64,000 nucleotides of DNA from an uncultured Collinsella sp. (GTDB taxonomy: Bacteria; Actinomycetota; Coriobacteriia; Coriobacteriales; Coriobacteriaceae). A model generated the notes under the pieces. That model had not been told where the DNA came from. It ran no database searches and saw only the letters and a list, made by a program, of their open reading frames with translations. The stretch spans positions 343,886 to 407,885 of the forward strand of contig CAUHHB010000001.1 in assembly GCA_959606035.1 (NCBI GenBank). Direction: 5' to 3'. This document shows positions 5,462-46,345 of this stretch, piece by piece. A program made the translations under genes and the position numbers. Numbering within the stretch: position 1 is the stretch's first letter; every line of letters starts with the position of its first letter.

Positions 5462-5555
5462 ATTGTTGGGGAGGGGTGGTGGACTGGTGGGCTGGCGCCA
5501 TAGGAGACGGCGCCAGCAACTAATACGGTTAGTCGGCGAATTGACATGGCGGCTG

Positions 5556-6284
5556 TTATTTATCGATGGCCCCGTCGTCAATAACACCCTGAATGGTCTT
5601 TGCGACATTAGAGGTCAAACGACCGACAGCAAGATCGGGGTTTTGATTGAGCCTCGTCTCTGCGACCAGTGCTGTTTCAAAATTTGAAGCAAGGTCACCA
5701 ACGTGATGATTGGTTTTTAGATTCATTCCAAGTTCATCGCTAGCAAGCTTCTCAATATATCTACGTCGACTACCCGGAGCGTGACCATTTTCCACAATAT
5801 CATTTTTATGGGGCAAAATAGTTGTCTCAAGTGCGCCGGGCTTATGCAGCATCAAGTAAAGCTCAAAGCTTGGATACGTCACGGCGACTTCAATTCTCTC
5901 TCTGCGGAAATCCTTTAGCAGCGTCGCGTACCCATCTGGATTGTTCTTAAAAACATCAACGTCAAAAACAACAACAACGCGATCGGAACCTTTAATGAAG
6001 TCGCTCCCATTAACCTGGCCATTCATAACGGCAATCGCGTGCTCCAACAGCTTCTTGGGTGAGGATTGGTTTTTCTCTCCTTCGGTTCTTTCGACCGGCT
6101 TTAGTTCAATTAGTTCCGGTTTACCCTCTTTGGCTAAACGTGTTGCAAGTGAGTCGAAGTACCAATATTCGGTATTGGCTCCTTCTCCAATGAGAAAGCA
6201 CTTTGATTTTGGCTTTTCGACTTTCCATTCGGTTCTACTGGACCAAGTGTCAAGAGAGTTAAGCGGTGGCATTTGGTTCCCCAA
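5556..6284 (-). CDS. RloB-like (TOPRIM-like, AbiLii-type) protein, partner of the upstream AAA ATPase
   Basis: KCFLIGEGANTEYWYF (TOPRIM-like E-G-E), VVVVFDVD (DxD) and SFELYLMLH match the RloB family pattern. Overlaps the upstream ATPase gene by ~26 nt, suggesting an operon. Confidence 0.7.
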   Translation of the reverse strand: MGNQMPPLNSLDTWSSRTEWKVEKPKSKCFLIGEGANTEYWYFDSLATRLAKEGKPELIELKPVERTEGEKNQSSPKKLLEHAIAVMNGQVNGSDFIKGSDRVVVVFDVDVFKNNPDGYATLLKDFRRERIEVAVTYPSFELYLMLHKPGALETTILPHKNDIVENGHAPGSRRRYIEKLASDELGMNLKTNHHVGDLASNFETALVAETRLNQNPDLAVGRLTSNVAKTIQGVIDDGAIDK

Positions 6285-7674
6285 TCAAACCGAGCGCATC
6301 TAGAGCCCTTCCTGTTGATAAAACCGGGACGCCGCCATAGCGACCCTCAAGGTATTGCTTATTGACGCGGGCATCGGATCTTGCCCCGTTGTCTGCAAAC
6401 TTATCAAGCGGGAACAGGCTCGAATAGCCATGACGGTCACGTTCGACAAACCAGATCTCATCACGCCTGAAATAATCGAAACTCATGATCGTGTTTTCAT
6501 GGGTTGTAAATATCAGCTGGCAGTCGTCTTGCGCATGGACACGGTTAAACAGTAAGACAAGTTGCTGGGTAAGCATGGGATGAAAGCTGCGATTAAGCTC
6601 GTCAACCAGGAACAACTTGTCTTTACTGCTTGTAAATAAGATGTCCATAAAATCGAACAATCGCTTGGTTCCGTCCGATTCCTCCCTAAAATCGAAGTCA
6701 AGGATGGAGCCTTCGTGCCGCAGCTTCAGCACCGTGGCACGAGGCTCGGACGCTCCCTTGCTTTCAATGCTCAGAAATGCGTCGTCGCTGCGAAACGTTA
6801 CGTTCGACTCGGCCTTCGGGCCAGAGGGGATGTTGTCGGTCATGAAGCGTTTTACAGAAAGCAACACTTCCGAAGGAACATACTTTTCAAGTTCGTCCAT
6901 CCCTATTTCTTGTTTACGGAGGCTGCTGATGCCCGTATCAAAGGAGGCCAGTACGTTGGCAACCTTGTCCAAATTGGCTCCGTGTCCGTAAAACTCAGAA
7001 GATGCAGGGCTTTGGTTGGCTCCGATAGCCGAAAAATTCAAATTAAACCAAGAAAAAACATCCGGTAAAGCCGCCAAGGTAGATCCCTCTAAATAGTTTC
7101 TACCATTAGCAAGCGCCGATAAAAATAGCTCAGACCCTATGCTTTCGCGGACACGATGGAGGAAATCTTCGCGATAAACATTAAGCCTGGTTTTATCAAC
7201 ATCGGATGCGCCTTGTTCGAGACCTCGACAGTTAACGGAATCCGAACCGATTCTTTCAAATAACAAATTTGATTTGTCGCCGAGCTCGTAAAGCCACTCC
7301 GAAACGATTGTTAGTTGAGCTAAATTGCAGCTAAAGCCATAGTCGAACGCGCGGCCATTTTTATAGAGCTGAATATCGAAAACCGACTCCTGTTCTTTAA
7401 GGCCAGAACCGCATTTGCAATACTCGACCTGGGCCCCTTGAGGAAGTGCGCCGCTTAAAACAACATGCCTCATAAAGAGGAGCGCGGTAAAAATCGTGCT
7501 CTTTCCGGAGGCATTGCCACCGTAGATAACGGCATTCCGTAAAACGCGAGCATTTTGCGGAGTTGCGCAAATATGATTTTTAAAGCGCTGAATTTTAGAG
7601 GTCGATACCATGTCCAACGTTATCGGGTCTTCGCCTACTGACCTAAAGTTCTTAAATGAAAATCTGATAAGCAT
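6259..7674 (-). CDS. AAA_21/AAA_15-type ATPase (AbiLi / RloA-like abortive-infection ATPase)
   Basis: Walker A VIYGGNASGKST. C-terminal LFLVDELNRSFHP...LIFTTHENTIM...FRRDEIWFVERD...KQYLEGRYGGVP is typical of the ATPase partners of RloB/OLD-like nucleases. RBS AGGAG lies before the ATG. Confidence 0.85.
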   Translation of the reverse strand: MLIRFSFKNFRSVGEDPITLDMVSTSKIQRFKNHICATPQNARVLRNAVIYGGNASGKSTIFTALLFMRHVVLSGALPQGAQVEYCKCGSGLKEQESVFDIQLYKNGRAFDYGFSCNLAQLTIVSEWLYELGDKSNLLFERIGSDSVNCRGLEQGASDVDKTRLNVYREDFLHRVRESIGSELFLSALANGRNYLEGSTLAALPDVFSWFNLNFSAIGANQSPASSEFYGHGANLDKVANVLASFDTGISSLRKQEIGMDELEKYVPSEVLLSVKRFMTDNIPSGPKAESNVTFRSDDAFLSIESKGASEPRATVLKLRHEGSILDFDFREESDGTKRLFDFMDILFTSSKDKLFLVDELNRSFHPMLTQQLVLLFNRVHAQDDCQLIFTTHENTIMSFDYFRRDEIWFVERDRHGYSSLFPLDKFADNGARSDARVNKQYLEGRYGGVPVLSTGRALDALGLIGEPNATA

Positions 7675-7731
7675 GGCGTCTCCTAGGTGATCAGCTGCCT
7701 TGCATAAAAGAGGCAGTCAACAAAAGAATAG

Positions 7732-7756
7732 TATTTGACGATTTTTTCGTCAAATA
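7732..7756. promoter_or_regulatory. perfect 10-5-10 palindrome TATTTGACGA-ttttt-TCGTCAAATA upstream of the ATPase/RloB operon (candidate operator)
   Basis: Read directly in the sequence, ~60-80 nt upstream of the minus-strand ATPase start at 7674. Confidence 0.35.
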
Positions 7757-7959
7757 TATATGAGGTTGATGACGCTTGCCCATCATGCGTCCAATTTGCC
7801 GCATATTTCCGAAATTGGTCTTTGTTACAGGCTTCATTCCACTGTTGAATCAATTAGATAATGGACAAAATTGCAGAATCTGTCTCCGTGCATAAACGCC
7901 GACGGGGGCGAAATCGTTCATATCGGCAATTGGTAGGTCAGTTTGTGTTGTTTACGGCT

Positions 7960-8290
7960 TGCGCCTGCTGCTCGGCTGTTGCTCGGTTGTTGCGCGTGCT
8001 GTTGCCCGAGGCTGCATGGCTTCTGCGATGGCCGCCATGGACATCGTCGCGCCGTTCATGGACGTGCACGCGATCGCCCAGAGCGGGTAGTAAAGGGGTC
8101 GTTTCATAGCGGAGCCTCTCGGTGAGCAGCCAATAGGGTCCGAAGGCAGCTCCAGGCCAGCACTCCGCACATATTTTGTTGGGTTTATTTTCGTCTCATA
8201 TCGGGTTCGTGCGTGCGGCGTGCCAGCACTCCGCACATATTTTGTTGGGTTTATTTACGGGAACACCAGTCAACATCAGCGAACTTTCTG
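7960..8290 (-). pseudogene. direct repeat copy B: truncated duplicate of the 5' end (signal peptide + ~40 aa) and upstream leader of the transglutaminase-like gene, with an internal ~68-bp tandem duplication
   Basis: ORF 7952..8236(-) encodes ...SAGLELPSDPIGCSPRGSAMKRPLYYPLWAIACTS...AAIAEA, nearly identical to the N-terminus of the 2742..5339 protein and then diverging. gccagcactccgcacatattttgttgggtttattt occurs twice (about 8156 and 8224). Confidence 0.7.
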
Positions 8291-8635
8291 GGAAAGGTTG
8301 GGGAGGGGAGCGCGGGGTGGGCGAGGCGTGCTTGCCCAGGCGTTCAGTTCTGTGCTTATTTGCTATGCGCGATATGTTGCTATCTCGCGCCGTCTCACGA
8401 TCTCACTGAAGTTCGGCCGGCGCTGGATCCACTGTAGACGTTGAACTTTCCCATTATGTTTCGCTCCATATCCTGCTCCCCTTAGGTCGGATATCCGATC
8501 GGAGCATAGTTCCGTTTAAGAAGTTGGTGAAAGTGCGTTAACGGGATTGGCGAAAGCGCGTTGGCGCATTCGGTGAGCTGCATTTGCGAAAGTGGTTGGT
8601 TTTAGATTGGCGCAAACGGACGCGATCTACGTCGA

Positions 8636-9060
8636 GTGCCGCCGCGCTGGAGGCGCGTGATGGAAGGGTGCTGCCCGAGGGTGGCGGCGATCCTCGAGGA
8701 GGGTGAGCCGGACGCCCTGACATACTACGACCTCCCGCCGTTGCCCCGGAGGCACCTGCGCGCTAATAACGTCCAGGAGCGGGCGAACCGCAAGATAAAG
8801 TGCGGGTCGAGGATGATGCAGCCCTTCCCCTCGGCGGCATCGCTGGCGCGGCTGGCCGGTGCGGTCATGTGCGAGCAGGACGAGATATGGCAGGAGTCCA
8901 GATACTGCTCGGAGGCAAAGATGAGTGAGCTCTGCGACGAGGCCCGCACGCGCGGGGTCGACGGGACTGTCGACTGGGCGCGGTTGGAGGTCGAGGCCGG
9001 GAAGATGATCGAATCCGGCCTCGAGCTTGCGGACAGGATCGAAGCAGTACAGGATATCAA
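8636..9060 (+). mobile_element. IS256-family (mutator-type) transposase C-terminal remnant, N-terminally truncated
   Basis: AAILEEGEPDALTYYDLPPLPRRHLRANNVQERANRKIK...FPSAASLARLAGAVMCEQDEIWQ matches the conserved C-terminal block of IS256 transposases. The N-terminal DDE region is absent. Confidence 0.6.
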
Positions 9061-9075
9061 CCGTATTCCAGTTTT

Positions 9076-9829
9076 TTGGGCGCCGGGCCGACTCGCTTCG
9101 GATCGGGCGCTACACCAACTTTCTCGATACTACCCGATCCTATCGTTAGGCTTTCTTTTGATGAAATCCTAACGATAGCAAATTACTCTAAGGCCAAGAC
9201 TCGTGTATTTCTTCTCGATAGTTGTTGTTCTGGGTATTTGGGGGCTCCTAGCGCACTGGACGGGACTTCCTCAAAGCTCAGTGAGGGTTTATCAATTTTT
9301 GAGTGCATGCTGTCCTAGCGAATGTACGGAGGAGTTTAACGGGCGCGGGACATTCACATCGCTTCTTGTAGATGCGCTAAATGGCGGCGCGGCAGACCTG
9401 ATAGAGCATGTTACTCTTGGTGGGGTCTGCACGTTTATTGATGAGTCTCTCGGGCCATGGGACCAGCTGCCTGTGTTTAGGACTAATGTGAATTCTTTTA
9501 TTTCGCTGAGGAAAGACGTTCCCCAGGTTCCCGATGGCGTGTTGGGACAGCTGCCATTTTTGTTTGACGCGCCCGGTGCTAAACTGCCCTTGGATCCATC
9601 TTTTGAGCCTACCAACATTCCTGATTGGGAAGAGCATCGAATTGTGGAGCCCTATACGACTGAGGATAATTTGGGGACGTTCAAGATCCTTCAGCAGTTG
9701 GAGGGTATTCGCCTTGTCCGTTCTGTGGAGTCGGAGCATATGTATCATGCTGCTATGGAGTCCAAGTCTTGTGAACTGACGGCTCTGGGCAAGCGGTATT
9801 GGCACCTTACCACTACGGGCAAGATTTAG
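9076..9829 (+). pseudogene. caspase-like (peptidase C14-like) domain gene remnant, frameshifted and N-terminally truncated
   Basis: Frame 1 has ...KTRVFLLDSCCSGYLG (caspase catalytic-Cys-like D-x-C-x-S-G). About 30 codons later frame 3 continues with FNGRGTFTSLLVDALNGGAADLIEH, typical of the region after the catalytic Cys. The two frames are separated by a stop at 9316-9318. No His-Gly dyad region upstream, where the IS remnant sits. Confidence 0.35.
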
Positions 9830-9931
9830 CTGCTTGTCGGATTCAATTGCGTTGCTTTCAGACGGGTTAAAATTGTAACGGTTGTTATTTTCAGGCGTTA
9901 TAGCTTTGTCTGTATATGAGGTGTTTTGTAA

Positions 9932-10738
9932 ATGCTGTTCAACTTAATTGTACGTGCCAATGAGACACAGCCCATGTTGACTTCTAGGATGTTCGAGGGA
10001 ACTCCTGAGCAGTTGACGAGCGCCTATAGGACTGGCACTGGTTTTGACTTTAATGCCCTCGCTCAGCTTCCTACTGTTATGACGCGCGAATTTGAGTCGG
10101 ATGATATGGGTGCCGTGGCCACACTTGGATATATGGATACCCCGTCTATCAACCCCGTGATCTCCAAGCCTATTCTACGGTTTCCATCGCAGGCATTGTT
10201 GAATCTTGGTCTACTTGACGAGAACTGCTGGCAAAACAAACGTACTCATTGGAGACTTTGTGAAGGCGACCCTTTTCGTCTGTTTTTAAATTTTCTTGAT
10301 AACTCCCCCTTGACGGTCGGATCTGAAAGGTCTAGTGCTCATGATCCAAATTTAATTGCCGTCATGATGCCATTCACCGACGACCCTTCAATAGATCCTG
10401 TATATTCGGCGTTGATCGAAGGCTCTAAGAGGGCGGGCAAGATATGTAAACGCGCAGATGAGATATTGACGCCTACCGATATTACGGAAGACATATTTAA
10501 ACTGATTGCGTCTAGCTCTTCGGTAATTGCAGACATTACTGGCCTGAATTCAAACGTTATGTTCGAAGCGGGCTATGCGATTGGAATGGGTAAGCAGACC
10601 GTTTTTATACACCAAGGTGATGTTCCTAAGCTGCCTTTTGATGTTAGTCATAGGAGGGTATTTAGGTACAACCGGAATAAGGACGGATTGACTATACTTT
10701 CAGACATGATTTTCAAAATCTTGATGAATGCTCAATGA
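9932..10738 (+). CDS. protein with unknown N-terminal domain and C-terminal nucleoside 2-deoxyribosyltransferase-like (NDT/SLOG-like) domain
   Basis: C-terminal IAVMMPFTDD...VYSALIEGSKRAGKICKRADEI...SSSVIADITGLNSNVMFEAGYAIGMGKQTVFI resembles the NDT-like fold, with a conserved Glu in the N.NVmfEaGYAiG.gK motif. Sits in the low-GC island. Confidence 0.45.
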   Translation: MLFNLIVRANETQPMLTSRMFEGTPEQLTSAYRTGTGFDFNALAQLPTVMTREFESDDMGAVATLGYMDTPSINPVISKPILRFPSQALLNLGLLDENCWQNKRTHWRLCEGDPFRLFLNFLDNSPLTVGSERSSAHDPNLIAVMMPFTDDPSIDPVYSALIEGSKRAGKICKRADEILTPTDITEDIFKLIASSSSVIADITGLNSNVMFEAGYAIGMGKQTVFIHQGDVPKLPFDVSHRRVFRYNRNKDGLTILSDMIFKILMNAQ

Positions 10739-11371
10739 GTGCTTTCTTGAGCACTGCCGAATGCCGCGATTCTGCTGCGTCGATATTGCGCTTGGACACC
10801 GGGGCAGACTTGGCTTCGGTGTCCATTTGTTGCTAGTTGCCGGCCTCACGGTGCTGTCGTATGTCGCTCTCGCGCATGCCGACTCAGCACGCGTTGTGCG
10901 ATACCGCTCATCTATCAAACGTCGTGACTTGTCGAATTGTTAGGCAATCTGTTCGCTCACGGTCTCATAATCAAATAAACGCAACCCCTCTTCCACGGAG
11001 ACCAGATGTCTGAGCCGATCGTCGGAAAACTTGCCTGCTGCAACATCATTAACTGCGCAACTATTACGTTAAAACCCAATGTAACCACTGTTTTGCACGG
11101 AATGGACAGGGCGATGCATATGACGGGGTCGAGGCCGTAAAAGTTACTTTTCGAAAGAATCTTGACGGCACCTTATTCGTAGGGTTTTCGCCTACGGTGA
11201 GGTCGTGAACATCAATCGCAAGCGCGGAACTATCAATCGGGGCCGAAAAGAAGGGCGAGCTGAAGTGCTGCATGTTGCTGCTTCCGAAAGCATCCAAGTG
11301 GGGGCTTGCTGGCGGTCTAGGGCGTACACTATGGGTGAAGCCATTACGGCGGGCTGGCTAATTGTTAGAAG

Positions 11372-12421
11372 GTGAGCATGGGATACATAATCCGTTCATC
11401 GGAAAAGACATCTTCCTCGGCTAGCGAGATGGAGACTAAGGCGCTCCTCCATCTGCTCTGTGAGGATGGAGGCAATGGAAACATCATTGGGTTTGCCATC
11501 GACTTCTTCAACGATGTTACAGGGATGGATCGGAACGCCCTTAGGCTTTATGATATACAGTCTAAGGGCACCGATTCTGGCCCATCGGCTTTAGGCCAAG
11601 AGTTGGTTACCTTATATAAGAATTACATCAGCGAATTCAAGAGGTTCTTTGTTGCTCAAATTCTTTTTGTGCGTAGCGTGACTAGGCCAGTCCTTGGGGA
11701 CCAGTTGCTCACTGAGTTCAGGTACCGCGATATGACGGAAGCTGCTCAGATAAAGCTCCGTTCAAGTTTCGTGCAGATGTGCAGAGATAAGACATACATT
11801 GATAATGACTTCTTGGACGATGAAGCCATAGATGCCTTCCTTGATCAGGTCCTATTTGTTGTTGCAAAACCTGATAAGGAAGATTATATTCGTCCTCTCA
11901 TCAAGACAAATAATGCTCTGGGCACGACAGACAGAGATTTGCGGGCAATATTCGCTGAAATTAGAAAAAAGCAACTCGGCATAAAAACCTCTTCAAAGGT
12001 CGAGGGACTTGAGCTTAAGAGTCCGTCTGAGGCCTACAACTCCGGTCGCATTCTTAGGAGATCTGATATTGAGCTACTTGTCATCTCGCGAGTACTTAAC
12101 AGAAACCCATTAAAGGCAGGCATGCCTAAACCCTTTGAATCAATTTACAACGGCTTCGAAGAGGATTATGCAGAAGAAATGCTGGAAGGTTGTCAAAACG
12201 ATCTCGCCAAGCAAATGTTCACTACACCTGAGGCGTCTGCCTTTTGGAAACTTCTGAACGACATTGTGACAGCAATAAAAAATGATCCGGACAAAGGTGT
12301 CGAAGAAATTTATAGGGAAATCCCCTTATCTACTTTGGATGGCTGTAGGCAAATGGATGCTCTGTCGCATCAGTACTTTATATCGATTGTTAAGGAGGGG
12401 CTGAAAATTGATAAAGATTAA
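11372..12421 (+). CDS. hypothetical protein (349 aa). First gene of a two-gene module with an SMC-like ATPase. Possible LmuA/effector-like component.
   Basis: Clean ORF in the low-GC island, overlapping the downstream gene by 14 nt. No confidently recognisable domain. The N-terminal LLCEDGG...AIDFF...LYDIQSKG could be a degenerate PD-(D/E)xK-like motif (speculative). Start is either GTG 11372 or ATG 11378. Confidence 0.5.
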   Translation: MSMGYIIRSSEKTSSSASEMETKALLHLLCEDGGNGNIIGFAIDFFNDVTGMDRNALRLYDIQSKGTDSGPSALGQELVTLYKNYISEFKRFFVAQILFVRSVTRPVLGDQLLTEFRYRDMTEAAQIKLRSSFVQMCRDKTYIDNDFLDDEAIDAFLDQVLFVVAKPDKEDYIRPLIKTNNALGTTDRDLRAIFAEIRKKQLGIKTSSKVEGLELKSPSEAYNSGRILRRSDIELLVISRVLNRNPLKAGMPKPFESIYNGFEEDYAEEMLEGCQNDLAKQMFTTPEASAFWKLLNDIVTAIKNDPDKGVEEIYREIPLSTLDGCRQMDALSHQYFISIVKEGLKIDKD

Positions 12422-14036
12422 GGCTGTCTATATCGGAAATGGCGCAGAGTCCTATATTGAGGATAGGTTAACTGATGGCACCAACGTCATCTATAGTCTC
12501 GATAATAACCGTGGGAAAACAGTCTTGATGCAGGGTGCGATGTATGCTCTCGGTGCAATACCGACGTTTCCTGAGCGCTTCCCTTATAAGGAGTACATTT
12601 ATATCGTTGACCTTGATATCGACGGCAATGAGGTGTCTGTTCTGCGAAGCCGAAATACTTTTGCTGTTAAGACATCTGATAGTCTGAGCCTTTTCGATAG
12701 CGAGGCGGATTACTCTCGATACTGGAGTGAGAATTTCAGACGTTTGCCGAGCATCGTTAAAAACGGGCGATTGACGTCAGTTGGCCTTCAGCTCTATACG
12801 CAGATGGCGTTTATCGGACAAGATGATATTTCATCCGCAAAGATAACTGCTGGTCAGTTTAATAAGGATGATTTCACTGAGATGCTTTATGCCATTGCGG
12901 GGTTTGACGGGAGGGAACTTGATTCGGCCGAGGAGATTGCGCTCAAACGCCGAAGAGATGAACTGAAGGGGCTAATTAAATCGTTGGCCAAAGAAGCATC
13001 TGCGTTAAACGCGCGAGGTACGGCGCTGTCCGCAATTAGCGCAACAACTGACGCGCGTGACATGCAAGAGTTCCTAAAAGAACTTGATTCCGCACGTGCC
13101 GAGGTTACCGATTTAAGGAAGACGCGCAGTCGTTATCTGGCTCGTTTGACCAAGAATCAAATAGTTCTCGACGAGCTTAATTCATTGAGACGCGAAGTAA
13201 AATCGGGTAAGCTCGTGTGCCTAAAATGCGGCAGCGTCTCAGTCGGATATCAGATGGCCGACTCGGATGTTATTTTCGATGTCACATCTCCTGACATGAG
13301 AACTCAAATTATCAATACACTTAAGGAGCGCATCTATGCAATCGAGGCAGACCTCGATGCCCTGGAACGCAATCTGCGGAAGTCGCAGAATCGCTTGAGC
13401 GGTCTTCTTTCCAAAAATGATGAATTTAGCCTGATGGATGTTGTTGCATGCAAAGATGAATATCTAAATGAACAGGAAATAGATCAAAAAATGCAGGAGG
13501 CTCAAAGGGAACTGGATGACGTTAAGGATAAGCTCGAATCAGACAGAGTTCTGACAAGTGAAATCGCAAAACTGAGAAAAGAGTTTATGGACGACCTTCT
13601 TGGAAAGATGAATCTGGCAAGAAGGGCAATCTCGGATAATACTGAGGAATCTTCTTACGAAAGTTTGTTCAGCACCAAAGCAAACGTTTATTCGGGGAGC
13701 GACGGCACCATCTATTTTGCCGCTAGGACCTTTGCGATTGCTTCCAAGATCGATCACGGCATGCCAATAATGATTGATTCGTTCAGGGCCGACGATCTTT
13801 CTTCCGACCGCGAAGACCGGCTTTTGGATCTCCTGGGTAAACTTGACAATCAGATTATCCTAACAACGACGATTAAACGCGAAGAAAGTGCCGGCCCCGA
13901 TGCGTCAAAGTACGAGAGAGACCCGCGCGTCTATGCTATTAACTATTCGAACCATGAAATCAATAGGATAATGAGTGATGTCTATAATGATCGTTTTGCC
14001 GAAAAGGCGGCAGACTTCGGATTGGTTCTTAGATAG
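12408..14036 (+). CDS. SMC/RecF/RecN-like ABC ATPase with central coiled coil and a degenerate Walker B / H-loop
   Basis: N-terminal IKIKAVYIGNGAESY...NVIYSLDNNRGKTVLMQGAMYALG is an SMC-head-like strand plus a Walker A variant (LDNNRGKT). The long coiled-coil-type middle is rich in E/K/R/L. C-terminal YSGSDGTIYFAARTFAIAS (signature-like), PIMIDSF (Walker B Asp followed by Ser instead of Glu) and NQIILTTT (H-loop without His). TTG start is 9 nt after a strong RBS TAAGGAGGGG. Confidence 0.6.
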   Translation: MIKIKAVYIGNGAESYIEDRLTDGTNVIYSLDNNRGKTVLMQGAMYALGAIPTFPERFPYKEYIYIVDLDIDGNEVSVLRSRNTFAVKTSDSLSLFDSEADYSRYWSENFRRLPSIVKNGRLTSVGLQLYTQMAFIGQDDISSAKITAGQFNKDDFTEMLYAIAGFDGRELDSAEEIALKRRRDELKGLIKSLAKEASALNARGTALSAISATTDARDMQEFLKELDSARAEVTDLRKTRSRYLARLTKNQIVLDELNSLRREVKSGKLVCLKCGSVSVGYQMADSDVIFDVTSPDMRTQIINTLKERIYAIEADLDALERNLRKSQNRLSGLLSKNDEFSLMDVVACKDEYLNEQEIDQKMQEAQRELDDVKDKLESDRVLTSEIAKLRKEFMDDLLGKMNLARRAISDNTEESSYESLFSTKANVYSGSDGTIYFAARTFAIASKIDHGMPIMIDSFRADDLSSDREDRLLDLLGKLDNQIILTTTIKREESAGPDASKYERDPRVYAINYSNHEINRIMSDVYNDRFAEKAADFGLVLR

Positions 14037-14561
14037 AAGCCCTCTATTTTATGTCTATTGTTCGTGTCACGCGAGACCTGTTGATTGCGATATTGTGTAT
14101 GGCGCCGGAGCCGATATGGGCTCCGGCACCCTTTTGTCGCTGGTGGGTGATCGATTCTAGCCACCGTATCTTGTAGCTAGAAATGAATTGTTACGACGAC
14201 CCAGGGCGAAGCTATAAAGCGTGGTCGTCAAATTAGTTCTAATCAGCACTCTGAGCTAATCACCCATCGTCCCGATGGCAGAATCCGCGCAAAGGATTCC
14301 CATGGGCACGATCCCTTCCCGCCGAGAGGATAGGGGCTTGACGCAATTGCGGCTGCGGGCATGGATTAGCGTGTCCGCAGCCGCAAACGCCTGCCGGAAG
14401 CATGCGGCAAATTCTGGAACCTCCGAGCACAACGGCTTTTCCGAATAAAGGATCCGCAGGTAGAAACATTGTGGCATTCCGGAGCGCTCGGCACGCCAGG
14501 GATTTGCCGCATACTTCCGAGTTTTGGGCCTCGTACCCTTTGCTCCAGATGCAGCAAACAC

Positions 14562-14589
14562 TTGATTGATGCTATTTAAGGTCTATAAT
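14562..14589 (+). promoter_or_regulatory. sigma-70-like promoter (TTGATT-16nt-TATAAT) in front of the second AAA ATPase/RloB operon
   Basis: Near-consensus -35/-10 hexamers with a 16-nt spacer, read in the sequence ~55 nt upstream of the proposed start. Confidence 0.35.
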
Positions 14590-14643
14590 CAAATAAAAAA
14601 TCTGAAATATCTTTTCAAAACAATGAAAGGAATTTTGAGGACG

Positions 14644-15861
14644 ATGCTTTGCCAGTTTACCTTCAGGAACTATAGATCCTATCGCGACGAAACTGAGCTT
14701 TCCATGCAGGCAACATCTATGAGGGAGTTCGAGCGCTCCCTTATAGAGTGTCCTGACGGGCAGAGTTTCCTTCCGGTGGCTGCGGTTTATGGGCCTAACG
14801 CTGGCGGCAAGTCCAACCTGCTCGAGGCTCTTGACTATATTCGTTCGGCGGTGGCAAGGCCGATCAGATTGCTGTCTGCCAGCACTGATGCGCCAGAGGG
14901 TAACCGTCCTTCGATACCCCGTTGCTCTGCGTTTGAGTTCGATGACGTGTCTGCTGCCGAGCCCACCGAGTTCGAGCTCTACTATCGCGCGGGTGAGCAC
15001 GAGTACCGCTATGCCCTGTCCGTGCATGCGGACGAGATCGTGTCCGAAGGCCTGTGGCGGCGAAAATTGGGAGCGTCACGCACGGCGATGCTGTTCGAGC
15101 GTGAGGGCGCAGAGGTTGAACTCGGCCCCACGCTGCGTAAGCTCGTGACGGCTGCGAGATTCAACCCGAGACTGCCGTACCTGTCGTTTCTCTGCATCAA
15201 CTTTGACGCGCCGGTGGTCAAGGAAGCTGCCAGCTGGTTTCTTGACGGGGTGTTCCTGAACTATAACAGCTCCTATCTGGAGCAGATGCTCGAGCAATTG
15301 CTCGACGAGGATGACTCACCCGACGTCACGCGTTTTTTGCGCGCCGTTGATGTGCGTATTGATGGCTTCAGAGTGGAGAGGGCGCCGGAGTGGCGCGGCC
15401 AGCGCGTCTTCGTGAGGCACAAGGTGAGCGGCAAGGCGTACGAGCTGCGTTTATCCGAGGAATCTGCCGGAACCCAGAAGCTCATGGGGTTGGCTGCGTA
15501 TCTGATGACAGCGCTTGAGCGTGGTGGCACCGTTGTGGTAGACGAGCTCGACGCCAAACTGCACCCGAAGCTTCTTCGCTATGTGATTCTGCTGTTTAAG
15601 GATCCTGGGGTCAACAAGAGTGGCGCGCAGCTCATCTTCTCGTCCCAGGATGTTTCAACCATGCGAAACGATGTGTTCCGCCGTGACGAGATATGGTTCG
15701 CTGCGCGCGGCGAGGGGGAGGCGAGCCAACTGTGGTCTCTCGCCGACATCCACGAGGCAAACGGTAATCTGGTAAGCAAGAACGCGGCTTTCGACAAGCA
15801 ATACCTGTCCGGTCGCTACGGCGCCGATCCGTATCTCACCCGCATCGAGGAGTGGGATTAG
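14644..15861 (+). CDS. AAA_21-type ATPase (AbiLi / RloA-like), paralog of 6259..7674
   Basis: Start MLCQFTFRNYRSYRD parallels MLIRFSFKNFRSVGED of the first ATPase. Walker A VYGPNAGGKSN. C-terminal VVVDELDAKLHP...FRRDEIWFAARGEGE...KQYLSGRYGADPYL is shared with the first ATPase. The ORF-track start 14566 would lie inside the promoter, so start 14644 (or 14625) is preferred. Confidence 0.8.
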   Translation: MLCQFTFRNYRSYRDETELSMQATSMREFERSLIECPDGQSFLPVAAVYGPNAGGKSNLLEALDYIRSAVARPIRLLSASTDAPEGNRPSIPRCSAFEFDDVSAAEPTEFELYYRAGEHEYRYALSVHADEIVSEGLWRRKLGASRTAMLFEREGAEVELGPTLRKLVTAARFNPRLPYLSFLCINFDAPVVKEAASWFLDGVFLNYNSSYLEQMLEQLLDEDDSPDVTRFLRAVDVRIDGFRVERAPEWRGQRVFVRHKVSGKAYELRLSEESAGTQKLMGLAAYLMTALERGGTVVVDELDAKLHPKLLRYVILLFKDPGVNKSGAQLIFSSQDVSTMRNDVFRRDEIWFAARGEGEASQLWSLADIHEANGNLVSKNAAFDKQYLSGRYGADPYLTRIEEWD

Positions 15862-15862
15862 C

Positions 15863-16531
15863 ATGGTGGCGAAGAAGTCGAAGGGCTGGCGTAGCGGCAA
15901 ACGAGAGGGCCGCTCGCGCATGGTTCAGATGACGCGTCATCTTGTAGTGAGCGAGGGCAAGGAGACCGAGCCTCGCTACTTTGAGGGTGTGCGTGCGGCG
16001 TTGGGTGCGGCGAACGAGCGTAAGGTTGCCATTGTCGTTAAGGGGACCGGCAAACATACACTTGACCTACTTGACTTTGCCGTCGAACACTGCCGCTATG
16101 CGCCCGAGACATTCGACCATGTGTGGCTCGTGTATGACAAGGATGACTTTCCTGCGTCCGACTTTGACGCGATGGAGCGCAAATGCGACGAGCTCTCCGA
16201 TGGTTCGAGGACCTTCCATGCGTTGTGGTCGAACCCCTGCTTCGAGCTGTGGCCTCTTCTGCACTTTCGCTACACGACCGCGCATATGTCCGCGTCCGAC
16301 TGCCAGCATGCCCTCGCGCAGGAGATGTCGAGAGACCTGGGCATCGAGTACCGCAAGAACTTGGACGGGCTGTTCGAGGTGGTGGACGGCAAACGAGGCG
16401 AGGCATTGCAGCGTGTTGGGCGCCTCGTCACATACCATAGGGGGCTGGGTAACGTTAAGCCATCTGCGCAAAACCCTGCAACTAAGGTGGGCGAAATTTT
16501 CGATGTAATCGGGCCGTATCTGGCTGGCTAG
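15863..16531 (+). CDS. RloB-like (AbiLii-type, TOPRIM-like) protein, paralog of 5556..6284
   Basis: LVVSEGKETEPRYF, VWLVYDKDDF and ALWSNPCFELWPLLHF are the hallmark RloB motifs. Starts 2 nt after the ATPase stop. Confidence 0.75.
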   Translation: MVAKKSKGWRSGKREGRSRMVQMTRHLVVSEGKETEPRYFEGVRAALGAANERKVAIVVKGTGKHTLDLLDFAVEHCRYAPETFDHVWLVYDKDDFPASDFDAMERKCDELSDGSRTFHALWSNPCFELWPLLHFRYTTAHMSASDCQHALAQEMSRDLGIEYRKNLDGLFEVVDGKRGEALQRVGRLVTYHRGLGNVKPSAQNPATKVGEIFDVIGPYLAG

Positions 16532-46161: not shown

Positions 46162-46236
46162 TCCTCGGTAGCTCAATGGTAGAGCACGCGGCTGTTAACC
46201 GCGCTGTTGTAGGTTCGAGTCCTACCCGGGGAGCCA
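46162..46236 (+). tRNA. tRNA-Asn (anticodon GTT), copy 1
   Basis: Cloverleaf folded by hand: acceptor TCCTCGG/CCGGGGA, D-arm GCTC..GAGC, anticodon arm CGCGG-CTGTTAA-CCGCG, T-arm GTAGG-TTCGAGT-CCTAC, CCA encoded. Coordinates +-2. Confidence 0.85.
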
Positions 46237-46270
46237 GAATTTCTCAGCCCATTCTGCTGGGCTTTTAAAT

Positions 46271-46345
46271 TCCTCGGTAGCTCAATGGTAGAGCACGCGG
46301 CTGTTAACCGCGCTGTTGTAGGTTCGAGTCCTACCCGGGGAGCCA
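46271..46345 (+). tRNA. tRNA-Asn (anticodon GTT), copy 2 (identical tandem duplicate)
   Basis: Identical 75-nt sequence 34 nt downstream of copy 1. Confidence 0.85.

What the first reader, a model, noticed from the sequence alone, without database searches (positions are those of the whole stretch)
11372..14036. Candidate undescribed two-gene system: 349-aa unknown protein translationally coupled to a 542-aa SMC/RecF-like ATPase with a catalytically degenerate head
The two ORFs overlap by 14 nt. The second gene starts at a TTG 9 nt after a near-perfect RBS (TAAGGAGGGG), which points to tight translational coupling. The ATPase has an SMC-type N-terminal strand plus a Walker A variant (LDNNRGKT), a long coiled-coil-like middle, and a C-terminal signature/Walker B/D-loop/H-loop region. 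In that region the catalytic Glu after the Walker B Asp is Ser (IMIDSF) and the H-loop His is missing (IILTTT). It may therefore bind ATP without hydrolysing it efficiently. The architecture (effector-like partner + SMC-like ATPase, about 350 + 540 aa, in a defense island) is reminiscent of Lamassu (LmuA/LmuB) and ABC-3C systems. However, neither protein shows a domain I can confidently recognise beyond the ABC head. The upstream protein has only a speculative PD-(D/E)xK-like N-terminal motif (E..D..D-x-Q-x-K). This is my strongest candidate for a new anti-phage or anti-plasmid module.
Basis: partly seen in the sequence, partly recalled or inferred. Interest (0 to 1): 0.8.

Follow-up and report, generated by a model that had tools for sequence, protein, structure and literature searches.

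The report
Divergent two-gene Lamassu-like defence module
The two overlapping genes are real and always travel together, but they are not a new kind of system: they are a distant, so far unnamed relative of the two-gene (type I) Lamassu anti-phage system, already listed as the untested candidate "PDC-M22".

Summary
Two co-oriented ORFs (A 11378..12421, B 12408..14036) overlap by 14 nt, and B starts at a TTG 9 nt after AAGGAGG.

The interpretation needs correcting. Both proteins match the PADLOC candidate models PDC-M22A and PDC-M22B over their full length (E = 2e-128 and 5e-177). These are untested "guilt-by-embedding" candidates from Payne et al. 2024.

B is a clear homologue of type I Lamassu LmuB:
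- hhalign 99.6%, E = 2e-23, 461 columns.
- Foldseek top hit 9ux7_A, E = 9e-18.
- It shares K37, the CxxC zinc hook, the D-S-F Walker B and the missing H-loop His.

BcLmuB carries those same deviations and still hydrolyses ATP, so the head is not shown to be dead.

The pairing is found in 80 of 80 genomes across several phyla. There is no conserved third gene, and A and B co-evolve (r = 0.92).

Verdict: a new, sequence-divergent variant of LmuC-less Lamassu. Function is inferred, not tested. Interest is moderate to low.

The parts
10793..10825 (+). Terminator-like hairpin ending the upstream gene (9932..10738); marks the 5' boundary of the A-B transcription unit
   Evidence: 13-bp stem with 8 GC pairs, followed by a T-rich tail
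11367..11376 (+). Shine-Dalgarno-like AGAAGGTGAG upstream of the preferred ATG start of A
   Evidence: read from the sequence; homologue N-termini align to the ATG at 11378
11378..12421 (+). Gene A (PDC-M22A), the LmuA-like effector. Residue numbers in this report use the GTG numbering.
11378..11896 (+). N-terminal Cap4-like PD-(D/E)xK nuclease domain of A (about residues 3-175)
11552..11566 (+). Predicted catalytic strand D61-I-Q63-S-K65 of A. With D44 and D48 (11501-11515) and E21 it forms the candidate active site
   Evidence: Invariant in 42 of 42 aligned sequences. DxQSK is present in 80 of 80 genomic homologues. It is analogous to type I LmuA E40-x3-D44...Q57-x-K59, where K59A abolishes defence
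11897..12418 (+). All-helical C-terminal domain of A (about residues 176-349); inferred docking and oligomerisation domain
12392..12398 (+). Ribosome-binding site AAGGAGG for gene B, inside the 3' end of gene A
   Evidence: sequence; 9 nt spacer to the TTG at 12408
12408..14036 (+). Gene B (PDC-M22B), an LmuB-type Rad50/SbcC-like ABC ATPase of 542 aa with a TTG start; overlaps A by 14 nt
   Evidence: PADLOC PDLC04526 E=5.2e-177, and LmuB models down to E=2.7e-20. Profile against PDB: LmuB 9ux7_A E=2.3e-13. hhalign against the type I LmuB family: 99.55%, E=2.1e-23. Foldseek: 9ux7_A E=9.1e-18
12513..12521 (+). Walker A core G36-K37-T38, preceded by the invariant N26, S30 and N33
   Evidence: Invariant columns. 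BcLmuB has N26, S30, N33, G36 and K37 at the same positions. K37A abolishes BcLmuAB ATPase activity
12819..12821 (+). Q-loop Gln138
   Evidence: Invariant in the B family and in the type I LmuB family (Q138)
12924..13184 (+). Ascending coiled-coil arm (about residues 173-259)
   Evidence: AF2 helices H173-202 and H216-259
13218..13229 (+). Zinc-hook motif C271-L-K-C274 at the coiled-coil apex
   Evidence: Invariant C271 and C274; present in 78 of 79 genomic homologues. It aligns to BcLmuB 285-CQYC-288, which the authors call a canonical Zn-hook
13290..13634 (+). Descending coiled-coil arm (about residues 295-409)
   Evidence: AF2 helices H295-335 and H342-409
13695..13700 (+). ABC signature-motif remnant G430-S431 (YSGSD)
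   Evidence: Invariant; aligns to the GSG of the type I LmuB family
13764..13787 (+). Deviant Walker B, P453-I-M-I-D457-S458-F459-R460, with Ser in place of the catalytic Glu
   Evidence: D-S-F-R is invariant in the alignment. It aligns to BcLmuB P485-FCM-D489-S490-F491. It fits the short-Lamassu consensus hhhhD[Q/S/T/E]
13860..13871 (+). H-loop position L485-T-T-T488, with no His
   Evidence: T488 is invariant. The aligned segment of type I LmuB (Q517-x-FFSII) also lacks His
14104..14137 (+). Intrinsic-terminator-like hairpin plus T-tract, 68 nt after B's stop; the 3' end of the operon
   Evidence: 9-bp stem with 8 GC pairs, loop of 6, then ACCCTTTTGT

Best explanation
The locus is a self-contained, horizontally mobile, two-gene anti-phage/anti-plasmid module of the Lamassu type without LmuC (type I-like). 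PADLOC lists it as the untested candidate PDC-M22.

B is an LmuB-type Rad50/SbcC-like ABC ATPase. Two copies are expected to pair through the coiled coils and the CxxC zinc hook, and to act as the sensor of free DNA ends or aberrant replication structures.

A is the effector. It has an N-terminal Cap4-like PD-(D/E)xK DNase (E21, D44/D48, D61-x-Q63-x-K65) and a helical C-terminal domain.

By analogy with the solved BcLmuAB complex, A is held as an inactive monomer on the B dimer. DNA-end sensing, modulated by ATP binding and slow hydrolysis at the naturally deviant D-S-F head, releases A. A then oligomerises through its C-terminal domain and degrades DNA non-specifically, which aborts the infection.

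Shown here: homology of B to LmuB; fold and motif similarity of A to LmuA and Cap4; strict operonic pairing; co-evolution; absence of a third component; defence-island and R-M-embedded context.

Inferred, not shown: complex formation and stoichiometry, the trigger, ATPase activity, oligomerisation of A, and the defence phenotype itself.
For: - PADLOC: full-length matches to PDC-M22A and PDC-M22B, plus LmuB models.
- B profile against PDB sequences: the only specific hit is LmuB 9ux7_A, E=2.3e-13, with CxxC and DSF aligned.
- hhalign of the B family against BcLmuB gives 97.5%. Against a 22-sequence type I LmuB family it gives 99.55%, E=2.1e-23, over 461 columns.
- Reciprocal HMM searches: 40 of 40 and 78 of 80 hits, E down to 1e-22.
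- B's AF2 model (pLDDT 82) has type I LmuB as Foldseek top hit, E=9.1e-18, TM 0.54. That is 5-6 orders of magnitude better than type II LmuB, Rad50 or SMC.
- A has invariant D44-x3-D48...Q63-x-K65. Type I LmuA has invariant E40-x3-D44...Q57-x-K59.
- Canonical type I loci have the same layout and sizes: LmuA of 315-339 aa abutting or overlapping LmuB of 553-562 aa.
- 80 of 80 genomic loci have B immediately downstream of A, with a gap of -10 to +12 nt.
- No third gene is conserved; the commonest flanking family occurs in 10 of 80 loci.
- Mirror-tree correlation r=0.92, Mantel 0 of 999.
- Context: flanks often carry HsdR, HsdS, Dcm or a resolvase. The window island holds two AbiL-like pairs and a TIR-like gene, with low GC.
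- Mechanism template and ATPase activity of the D-S-F head: bioRxiv 10.1101/2025.06.23.660979. Walker B consensus and LmuC-less clade S: PMC12663957.
Against: - A has no detectable sequence relationship to LmuA. hhalign gives E=0.32 with 4 LmuA sequences and E=0.35 with 35. HMM searches in both directions give E>=0.03. There is no PADLOC LmuA hit, and no Pfam Cap4_nuclease/DUF4297 hit in any of 42 family members.
- The A family is an isolated sequence family: 411 representatives among 1.84 billion.
- Global TM-scores of A to LmuA are low (0.37-0.39), so similarity of the C-terminal domain is not established.
- B is only about 16-17% identical to BcLmuB.
- No experiment exists for PDC-M22. Payne et al. 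list it as untested, and no paper in the searched library mentions it.
- Complex formation could not be modelled with the tools available.
Confidence: 0.78

Rival explanations
1. This is a distinct defence system that merely re-uses an LmuB-like sensor. A is an unrelated PD-(D/E)xK nuclease recruited independently. It works differently from Lamassu, for example by cleaving DNA while still bound to B in an SbcCD-like ATP-driven reaction, or by targeting foreign DNA directly without abortive infection.
For: No sequence-level link exists between A and any LmuA. The A family is compact and isolated. PADLOC's curators did not recognise the cassette as a known system. The C-terminal domain of A is only partly superimposable on LmuA.
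Against: Among 48,164 PDB representatives, the best structural neighbour of A is the type I LmuA itself, ahead of Cap4, and more residues align than the nuclease domain alone. The domain order, sizes, gene order and gene overlap are the same as in BcLmuAB. Lamassu is known to swap effector domains while keeping the mechanism.
Confidence: 0.14
2. This is a housekeeping DNA-repair or chromosome-maintenance pair related to SbcCD, Rad50-Mre11, RecN or RecF.
For: B has the Rad50/SMC fold with a zinc hook. Twelve of 38 family members touch Pfam AAA_23. The literature derives Lamassu from SbcCD.
Against: - No NCBIfam or Pfam housekeeping family is matched above threshold.
- The partner is a PD-(D/E)xK nuclease, not an Mre11/SbcD phosphoesterase.
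- The distribution is patchy and spans several phyla.
- The pair sits in a low-GC island and is often embedded next to R-M genes and recombinases.
- Rad50 and SMC structures score 6 or more orders of magnitude worse than LmuB.
Confidence: 0.02
3. One reading: an undescribed system whose ATPase head binds ATP but is catalytically dead.
For: There is Ser instead of Glu after the Walker B Asp, and Thr instead of the H-loop His. Both are invariant in the family.
Against: The same D-S-F motif and the same lack of His occur in BcLmuB. The BcLmuAB complex hydrolyses ATP at a moderate, K37-dependent rate. The module is already catalogued as PDC-M22.
Confidence: 0.06

Closest known systems
Type I Lamassu, LmuA-LmuB of Bacillus cellulasensis NIO-1130 (BcLmuAB; PDB 9ux7/9ux8; 'clade S' of short Lamassu)
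   Same: - Two genes in the order effector then ATPase, abutting or overlapping, with no LmuC.
- Similar sizes: 315 + 562 aa against 347 + 542 aa.
- B and BcLmuB are homologous over the whole length (hhalign 99.6%).
- They share N26, S30, N33, G36, K37 and Q138, a single CxxC hook, P-x3-D-S-F as Walker B, and no H-loop His.
- A has the same two-domain plan, a Cap4-like nuclease plus a helical C-terminal domain.
- A has the same [ED]-x3-D...Q-x-K catalytic spacing.
   Different: - B is only about 16-17% identical to BcLmuB and forms its own family with its own PADLOC models.
- A shows no significant sequence or profile similarity to LmuA, and no Cap4_nuclease Pfam or LmuA PADLOC hit.
- The C-terminal domain is only partly superimposable.
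- Host range is centred on gut Coriobacteriia and Clostridia, not only Bacilli.
- Nothing has been tested experimentally.
PADLOC phage defence candidate PDC-M22 (Payne et al. 2024, cassette CAS_00094, FAM_01214>>FAM_00652)
   Same: This is the same thing. Both proteins match the PDC-M22A and PDC-M22B models end to end (E=2e-128 and 5e-177), in the same gene order.
   Different: PDC-M22 is only a name for an untested candidate, with no fold, family or mechanism attached. The link to Lamassu made here is not stated in any paper I could find.
Type II Lamassu / DdmABC / ABC-3C (LmuA-LmuC-LmuB; Vibrio cholerae, Salmonella enterica)
   Same: An LmuB-type SMC-like sensor and a Cap4-type LmuA nuclease. 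The working model is sequestration of LmuA followed by its release. LmuA 9hr5 is Foldseek's top hit for A, and type II LmuB gives about E=1e-11 for B.
   Different: There is no middle component LmuC. VcLmuB has no zinc hook and its Walker B is D-Q type. Structural and sequence scores are clearly weaker than for type I.
SbcCD / Rad50-Mre11
   Same: An ABC head split by an antiparallel coiled coil with a CxxC zinc hook. It is the proposed evolutionary ancestor of LmuB.
   Different: Those proteins have much longer coiled coils, a canonical D-E Walker B and an H-loop His. Their partner is a phosphoesterase nuclease bound at the heads, and they are housekeeping genes.
Cap4 (CBASS effector) and other DUF4297-type nucleases (HamA of Hachiman, HerA-DUF4297, the Avs3 N-terminal domain)
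   Different: A has no SAVED, helicase or STAND partner domain. It has no sequence-level match to Pfam Cap4_nuclease.

Membership tests
PADLOC PDC-M22 (untested candidate system) | Both proteins match the PDC-M22A and PDC-M22B HMMs, and the genes are adjacent and co-oriented | tested here: met
   PDLC04521 E=2.1e-128 (3-345 of the protein against 1-342 of 343 model positions). PDLC04526 E=5.2e-177 (2-539 against 2-532 of 535). Adjacency is shown.
Lamassu (LmuB-centred definition) | An SMC/Rad50-like ABC ATPase homologous to validated LmuB | tested here: met
   PADLOC LmuB models, E down to 2.7e-20. Profile against PDB: LmuB 9ux7_A, E=2.3e-13. hhalign 99.55%, E=2.1e-23, 461 columns. Reciprocal HMM searches. 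Foldseek top hit 9ux7_A, E=9.1e-18.
Lamassu (short type) | Short LmuB (about 600 aa) with Walker B hhhhD[Q/S/T/E] | tested here: met
   542 aa; I-M-I-D457-S458 is invariant. The consensus is taken from PMC12663957.
Lamassu (short type) | Prototypical Walker A, Gx4GK[S/T] | tested here: inconclusive
   The G36-K37-T38 core is invariant, but the first Gly is absent (L31 here, variable across the family). BcLmuB, a validated member, also lacks it (K31).
Type I Lamassu (clade S) | Single CxxC zinc hook at the coiled-coil apex | tested here: met
   C271 and C274 are invariant and present in 78 of 79 loci. They align to BcLmuB 285-CQYC-288.
Type I Lamassu (clade S) | Two-gene operon lmuA-lmuB with no LmuC | tested here: met
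   80 of 80 loci have A then B with a gap of -10 to +12 nt. No flanking family is present in more than 10 of 80 loci. Terminators bracket the pair in the window.
Type I Lamassu (clade S) | LmuA has an N-terminal Cap4-like nuclease and a C-terminal domain, at the level of fold | tested here: met
Type I Lamassu (clade S) | LmuA is homologous at the sequence or profile level to known LmuA | tested here: not met
   hhalign E=0.32 and E=0.35 with 35 LmuA sequences. HMM searches in both directions give E>=0.03. No PADLOC LmuA hit.
Lamassu as first defined by Pfam domains (DUF4297/Cap4_nuclease + DUF3732) | Pfam PF14130 on LmuA and DUF3732 on LmuB | tested here: not met
   No such hit for the window proteins, nor among the listed families for 42 A and 38 B family members. 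Caveat: the validated BcLmuB family also carries no Pfam domain, and BcLmuA has only a weak PF14130 hit. This criterion is therefore a poor discriminator.
Lamassu (functional definition) | LmuB2:LmuA1 complex; release and oligomerisation of LmuA triggered by DNA ends; anti-phage phenotype | not testable with these tools
   No multimer prediction or experiment is available. The mechanism is taken from bioRxiv 10.1101/2025.06.23.660979.
Type II Lamassu / ABC-3C | A middle component (LmuC) encoded between or beside lmuA and lmuB | tested here: not met
   A and B overlap by 14 nt. No third gene is conserved.
SbcCD / Rad50-Mre11, RecN, RecF | Match to curated housekeeping models; an Mre11/SbcD phosphoesterase partner; canonical D-E Walker B | tested here: not met
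   NCBIfam: Rad50_Sulf E=0.25, and nothing above cut-off. Pfam SMC_N and AAA_23 are sub-threshold. The partner has a PD-(D/E)xK fold. Walker B is D-S.

The most novel reading that the evidence does not exclude
PDC-M22 may be a second, independent LmuC-less Lamassu lineage. Its LmuB-type sensor would have co-evolved with a new effector family whose helical C-terminal domain is a previously unseen LmuB-docking and oligomerisation module. It might therefore respond to a different trigger, or resist anti-Lamassu phage proteins. Under this reading, the loss of LmuC and the D-S-F head arose once in a broad, largely unrecognised superfamily that also includes L131-type pairs, so Lamassu diversity in gut anaerobes would be substantially under-counted.
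Probability: 0.3. Interest if true: 0.5.

Novelty: new variant of a known kind. Interest (0 to 1): 0.35.

Why it matters
Practical value:
- It gives a fold, a family and a testable mechanism to a catalogued but uncharacterised defence candidate (PDC-M22). RefSeq still annotates both genes as hypothetical proteins.
- It gives concrete mutations to test: A-K65A, B-K37A, and B-C271/C274.

For Lamassu biology:
- It shows that the LmuC-less, zinc-hooked, D-S-F-head architecture reaches well beyond the Bacillus-type clade. It is found in Coriobacteriia, Clostridia, Fusobacteria, Bacteroidota and Proteobacteria.
- It shows that the sensor can be recognised by sequence while the effector has diverged beyond sequence recognition.

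It does not open a new category of immunity, and nothing about it is very surprising to a specialist.

Tried and rejected
1. Single-sequence searches of both proteins against PDB sequences gave no hits. The A profile against PDB gave only a chance hit.
2. Pfam and NCBIfam gave nothing above threshold for either protein. Scanning all 42 A and 38 B family members against Pfam also gave no DUF4297 or DUF3732 hit; only AAA_23 appeared, in 12 of 38 B members.
3. I tried to bridge A to LmuA by sequence. hhalign with 4 and then 35 LmuA sequences, HMM searches in both directions, and an exhaustive profile search of 1.84 billion representatives were all negative.
4. A search for a conserved third (LmuC-like) gene found none.
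5. The housekeeping RecF/RecN/SbcCD reading is rejected.
6. The 'dead ATPase' reading is rejected as unsupported, because BcLmuB has the same deviations and is active.
7. The pair is not carried on phages (no match) and is rare on plasmids (2 records).
8. No Rfam family or tRNA lies in or near the island.
9. The promoter scan was not above the shuffle expectation, so no promoter is claimed.
10. The supplementary tables of the Lamassu census (PMC12663957) are not held. I therefore could not check whether updated DefenseFinder models already call this family Lamassu.
Full report
**1. The observation**

The two ORFs exist exactly as described: 11372..12421 (+, 349 aa, GTG) and 12408..14036 (+, 542 aa, TTG). 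In the sequence, A's stop TAA is at 12419-12421 and B's TTG at 12408-12410, so the overlap is 14 nt. AAGGAGG lies at 12392-12398, which leaves a 9-nt spacer. Homologues of B start at the same column (MIKIK...), supporting the TTG start.

A's start needs one correction. Homologue N-termini (MxYxV...) and an SD-like GAAGGTGA at 11368-11375 favour the ATG at 11378 (347 aa).

Terminator-like hairpins at 10793-10825 and 14104-14127 bracket the pair. The promoter scan was not above the shuffle expectation, so I claim no promoter.

**2. Already catalogued**

Pfam and NCBIfam give nothing above threshold for either protein. PADLOC-DB does match both, end to end. A matches PDC-M22A (PDLC04521, E=2.1e-128, 1-342 of 343 model positions). 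B matches PDC-M22B (PDLC04526, E=5.2e-177, 2-532 of 535). B also hits several LmuB models (E=2.7e-20; E=2.6e-17 over residues 21-502).

PDC systems are 145 untested 'phage defence candidates' found as gene cassettes embedded in BREX, DISARM or type I R-M systems. They were curated to exclude known systems (Payne et al., bioRxiv 10.1101/2024.01.29.577857). PDC-M22 is cassette CAS_00094 (FAM_01214>>FAM_00652), listed with the number 162, and carries no functional annotation. No paper in the searched library mentions PDC-M22 in its text. On a RefSeq plasmid of Paenibacillus larvae, both genes are annotated 'hypothetical protein'.

**3. Conserved pairing**

A has 236 homologues at 90% clustering, all unnamed and without Pfam domains. 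A scan of one genome per GTDB species returned 166 loci, of which 80 were kept. The best, at 99% identity, is an uncultured Collinsella MAG, so the window is from Collinsella (Coriobacteriia).

- In 80 of 80 loci a B homologue lies immediately downstream on the same strand, with a gap of -10 to +12 nt.
- No third gene is conserved. The commonest flanking family occurs in 10 of 80 loci.
- Those recurring flank families are type I R-M HsdR (10 loci), a serine resolvase (8), a C5 DNA methylase (5) and HsdS (5), plus RES and DUF3800 proteins.
- Pairwise distances of A and B across 77 loci correlate at r=0.92 (Mantel 0 of 999).
- Hosts span Actinomycetota, Bacillota, Fusobacteriota, Pseudomonadota, Bacteroidota and Victivallaceae.
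- The family is rare on plasmids (2 records) and absent from phage genomes.

**4. Context in the window**

The pair sits in a stretch of 45-47% GC within a wider low-GC region of about 5.5-16.5 kb. The flanks are about 57-61% GC. The island holds:

- two AbiL-like ATPase/RloB pairs (6259..7674 with 5556..6284 on the minus strand; 14566..15861 with 15863..16531 on the plus strand);
- a Mutator-family transposase fragment (8636..9172);
- a weakly TIR-like protein (9932..10738).

The island lies between polysaccharide-biosynthesis genes.

**5. What B is**

Thirty-eight family members share these invariant residues: N26, S30, N33, G36-K37-T38, Q138, C271-x-x-C274, G430-S431, P453, D457-S458-F459-R460, Q482 and T488.

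- A profile of the family against all PDB sequences gives one specific hit, 'Lamassu protein LmuB' 9ux7_A. E=2.3e-13, covering profile positions 20-477 against chain residues 20-511. The CxxC and the M-D-S-F are aligned.
- From that alignment I rebuilt residues 20-511 of the chain. CQYC falls at 285-288 and the Walker A Lys at 37, as published for Bacillus cellulasensis BcLmuB. The database returns the identical protein, named 'Lamassu protein LmuB' (P0229).
- hhalign of the B family against that sequence gives 97.5%. Against a 22-sequence type I LmuB family it gives 99.55%, E=2.1e-23, over 461 columns.
- HMM searches are reciprocal: 40 of 40 and 78 of 80 hits, E down to 1e-22.
- The type I family has the same invariant N26, S30, N33, G36, K37 and Q138, the CxxC, P485 and D489-S490-F491. 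At the H-loop position it has Q517-x-FFSII with no His.
- B's AF2 model (pLDDT 82.4) shows an ABC head split by two long helical arms (173-259 and 295-409), with a small beta-hairpin hook between them.
- Foldseek ranks type I LmuB first (9ux7_A, E=9.1e-18, TM 0.54). YydD follows at 2e-12, type II LmuB at about 1e-11, and Rad50 and SMC at 1e-9 or worse.

**6. The 'degenerate head'**

The literature settles this point. Short Lamassu LmuB has Walker B hhhhD[Q/S/T/E] (PMC12663957). Li et al. state that BcLmuB and VcLmuB have a 'naturally deviant Walker B'. They also report that BcLmuAB still hydrolyses ATP at a moderate rate, and that K37A abolishes it (bioRxiv 10.1101/2025.06.23.660979).

B shares the exact D-S-F motif and the lack of an H-loop His with BcLmuB. 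The inference of a dead or merely ATP-binding head is not supported.

**7. What A is**

The family alignment has invariant E11, E21-T22, D44, N47-D48, D61, Q63-S64-K65 and others. DxQSK is present in 80 of 80 genomic homologues.

The AF2 model is confident (pLDDT 88.6, pTM 0.86). It has an alpha/beta N-terminal domain to about residue 175 and an all-helical C-terminal domain.

- Foldseek against PDB: the top hits are Salmonella LmuA (9hr5, E=1.3e-4) and Vibrio LmuA (9nxx), then Cap4, HerA-DUF4297 and HamA. Global TM is only 0.37-0.39.

At the sequence level there is no link.

- hhalign against type I LmuA gives E=0.32 with 4 sequences. It gives E=0.35 with 35 non-redundant LmuA sequences gathered from metagenomes, nearly all of them followed by an LmuB-like gene.
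- HMM searches in both directions are null.
- No family member hits Pfam Cap4_nuclease.
- An exhaustive profile search of 1.84 billion representatives finds only 411 proteins at E<=1e-3. The listed ones are all about 345 aa or fragments.

The catalytic spacing is nevertheless the same. Type I LmuA has E40-x3-D44...Q57-x-K59, with K59A nuclease-dead. A has D44-x3-D48...Q63-x-K65.

**8. Architecture compared with canonical type I**

Canonical type I loci show LmuA of 315-339 aa abutting or overlapping LmuB of 553-562 aa, with no third gene. The window has 347 + 542 aa.

The validated BcLmuB family carries no Pfam domain in the precomputed annotation. BcLmuA has only a weak Cap4_nuclease hit, and one canonical LmuA (L085) has none. 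Failing the old 'DUF4297 + DUF3732' criterion is therefore not informative.

**9. Most likely mechanism**

Shown: B is an LmuB homologue. A has an LmuA/Cap4-like fold and catalytic motif. The pair is an autonomous, co-evolving, mobile, defence-associated operon.

Inferred from BcLmuAB:
- a zinc-hook-paired B dimer holds one A monomer, through A's C-terminal domain, in an inactive state;
- the complex binds DNA ends, and ATP binding and slow hydrolysis modulate this;
- A is released and oligomerises into an active DNase;
- non-specific DNA degradation aborts the infection.

Confidence is about 0.78.

The main rival (about 0.14) is that A is an independently recruited nuclease with a different mode of action. 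A housekeeping repair role is very unlikely (about 0.02).

**10. Novelty and verdict**

The pair is a real, well-conserved defence candidate, but it is neither undescribed nor a new category. The best description is a sequence-divergent variant of LmuC-less (type I-like) Lamassu, identical to PADLOC's untested PDC-M22.

The part that appears unpublished is the assignment itself: PDC-M22B is an LmuB of the type I kind, and PDC-M22A is an LmuA-like Cap4-fold effector that has diverged beyond sequence recognition. Interest is moderate to low (0.35).

I could not check whether the newest DefenseFinder Lamassu models already capture this family, because the supplement is not held.

Noticed in passing
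window 5556..7674 (- strand): A second AbiL-like pair lies on the minus strand: a 471-aa AAA_21 ATPase (6259..7674) followed by a 242-aa RloB-like protein (5556..6284). This is in addition to the AbiLi/AbiLii pair at 14566..16531 on the plus strand. So two paralogous AbiL-type systems flank the Lamassu-like pair.
   Followed up: partly
window 9203..10738 (+ strand): A 268-aa protein (9932..10738) has a weak TIR / nucleoside 2-deoxyribosyltransferase-like C-terminus (PADLOC 'Effector TIR' E=3.6e-10; Pfam hits sub-threshold). It is preceded by an unannotated 208-aa ORF (9203..9829) and followed by a strong terminator at 10793-10825. This may be another small defence module.
   Followed up: no
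window 8636..9172 (+ strand): A C-terminal fragment of a Mutator-family (IS256-like) transposase (Pfam Transposase_mut, model positions 304-379 of 379). It sits in a local high-GC patch inside the low-GC island, and looks like a remnant of the element that moved or rearranged the island.
   Followed up: no
window ~5500..16500: The whole defence island has lower GC (45-49% for most of it) than its flanks (57-61%). It is inserted between polysaccharide-biosynthesis genes: pyruvyl transferase, a GT2 glycosyltransferase and an SDR upstream, and DUF2194 and other genes downstream. No tRNA or obvious integrase lies next to it.
   Followed up: partly
L131:2447-5147 (human gut metagenome contig): This is another LmuC-less pair. 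It has a 345-aa LmuA-like protein (only the first ~80 residues are similar to BcLmuA) and a 559-aa LmuB-like protein with a CLHC hook and Walker B 'LWDAF'. It belongs to neither the canonical type I family nor PDC-M22, which suggests a wider superfamily of two-gene Lamassu-like systems.
   Followed up: no
L081-L085 (canonical type I Lamassu loci) and P0229-P0348: The experimentally validated BcLmuB and more than 100 of its relatives carry no Pfam domain in the precomputed annotation. BcLmuA has only a weak Cap4_nuclease hit, and one LmuA (L085) has none. Pfam-based recognition of type I Lamassu is therefore poor in general.
   Followed up: partly
window 14037..14565: A 530-bp non-coding gap separates B's stop from the AbiLi start. 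It contains the operon terminator (14104-14127) and a promoter-like site at 14562-14589 (10 of 12 matches), which overlaps the annotated TTG start of the AbiLi ORF. The true AbiLi start may therefore lie further downstream.
   Followed up: no
window 46162..46345: Two tandem tRNA-Asn (GTT) genes, far from the island.
   Followed up: no
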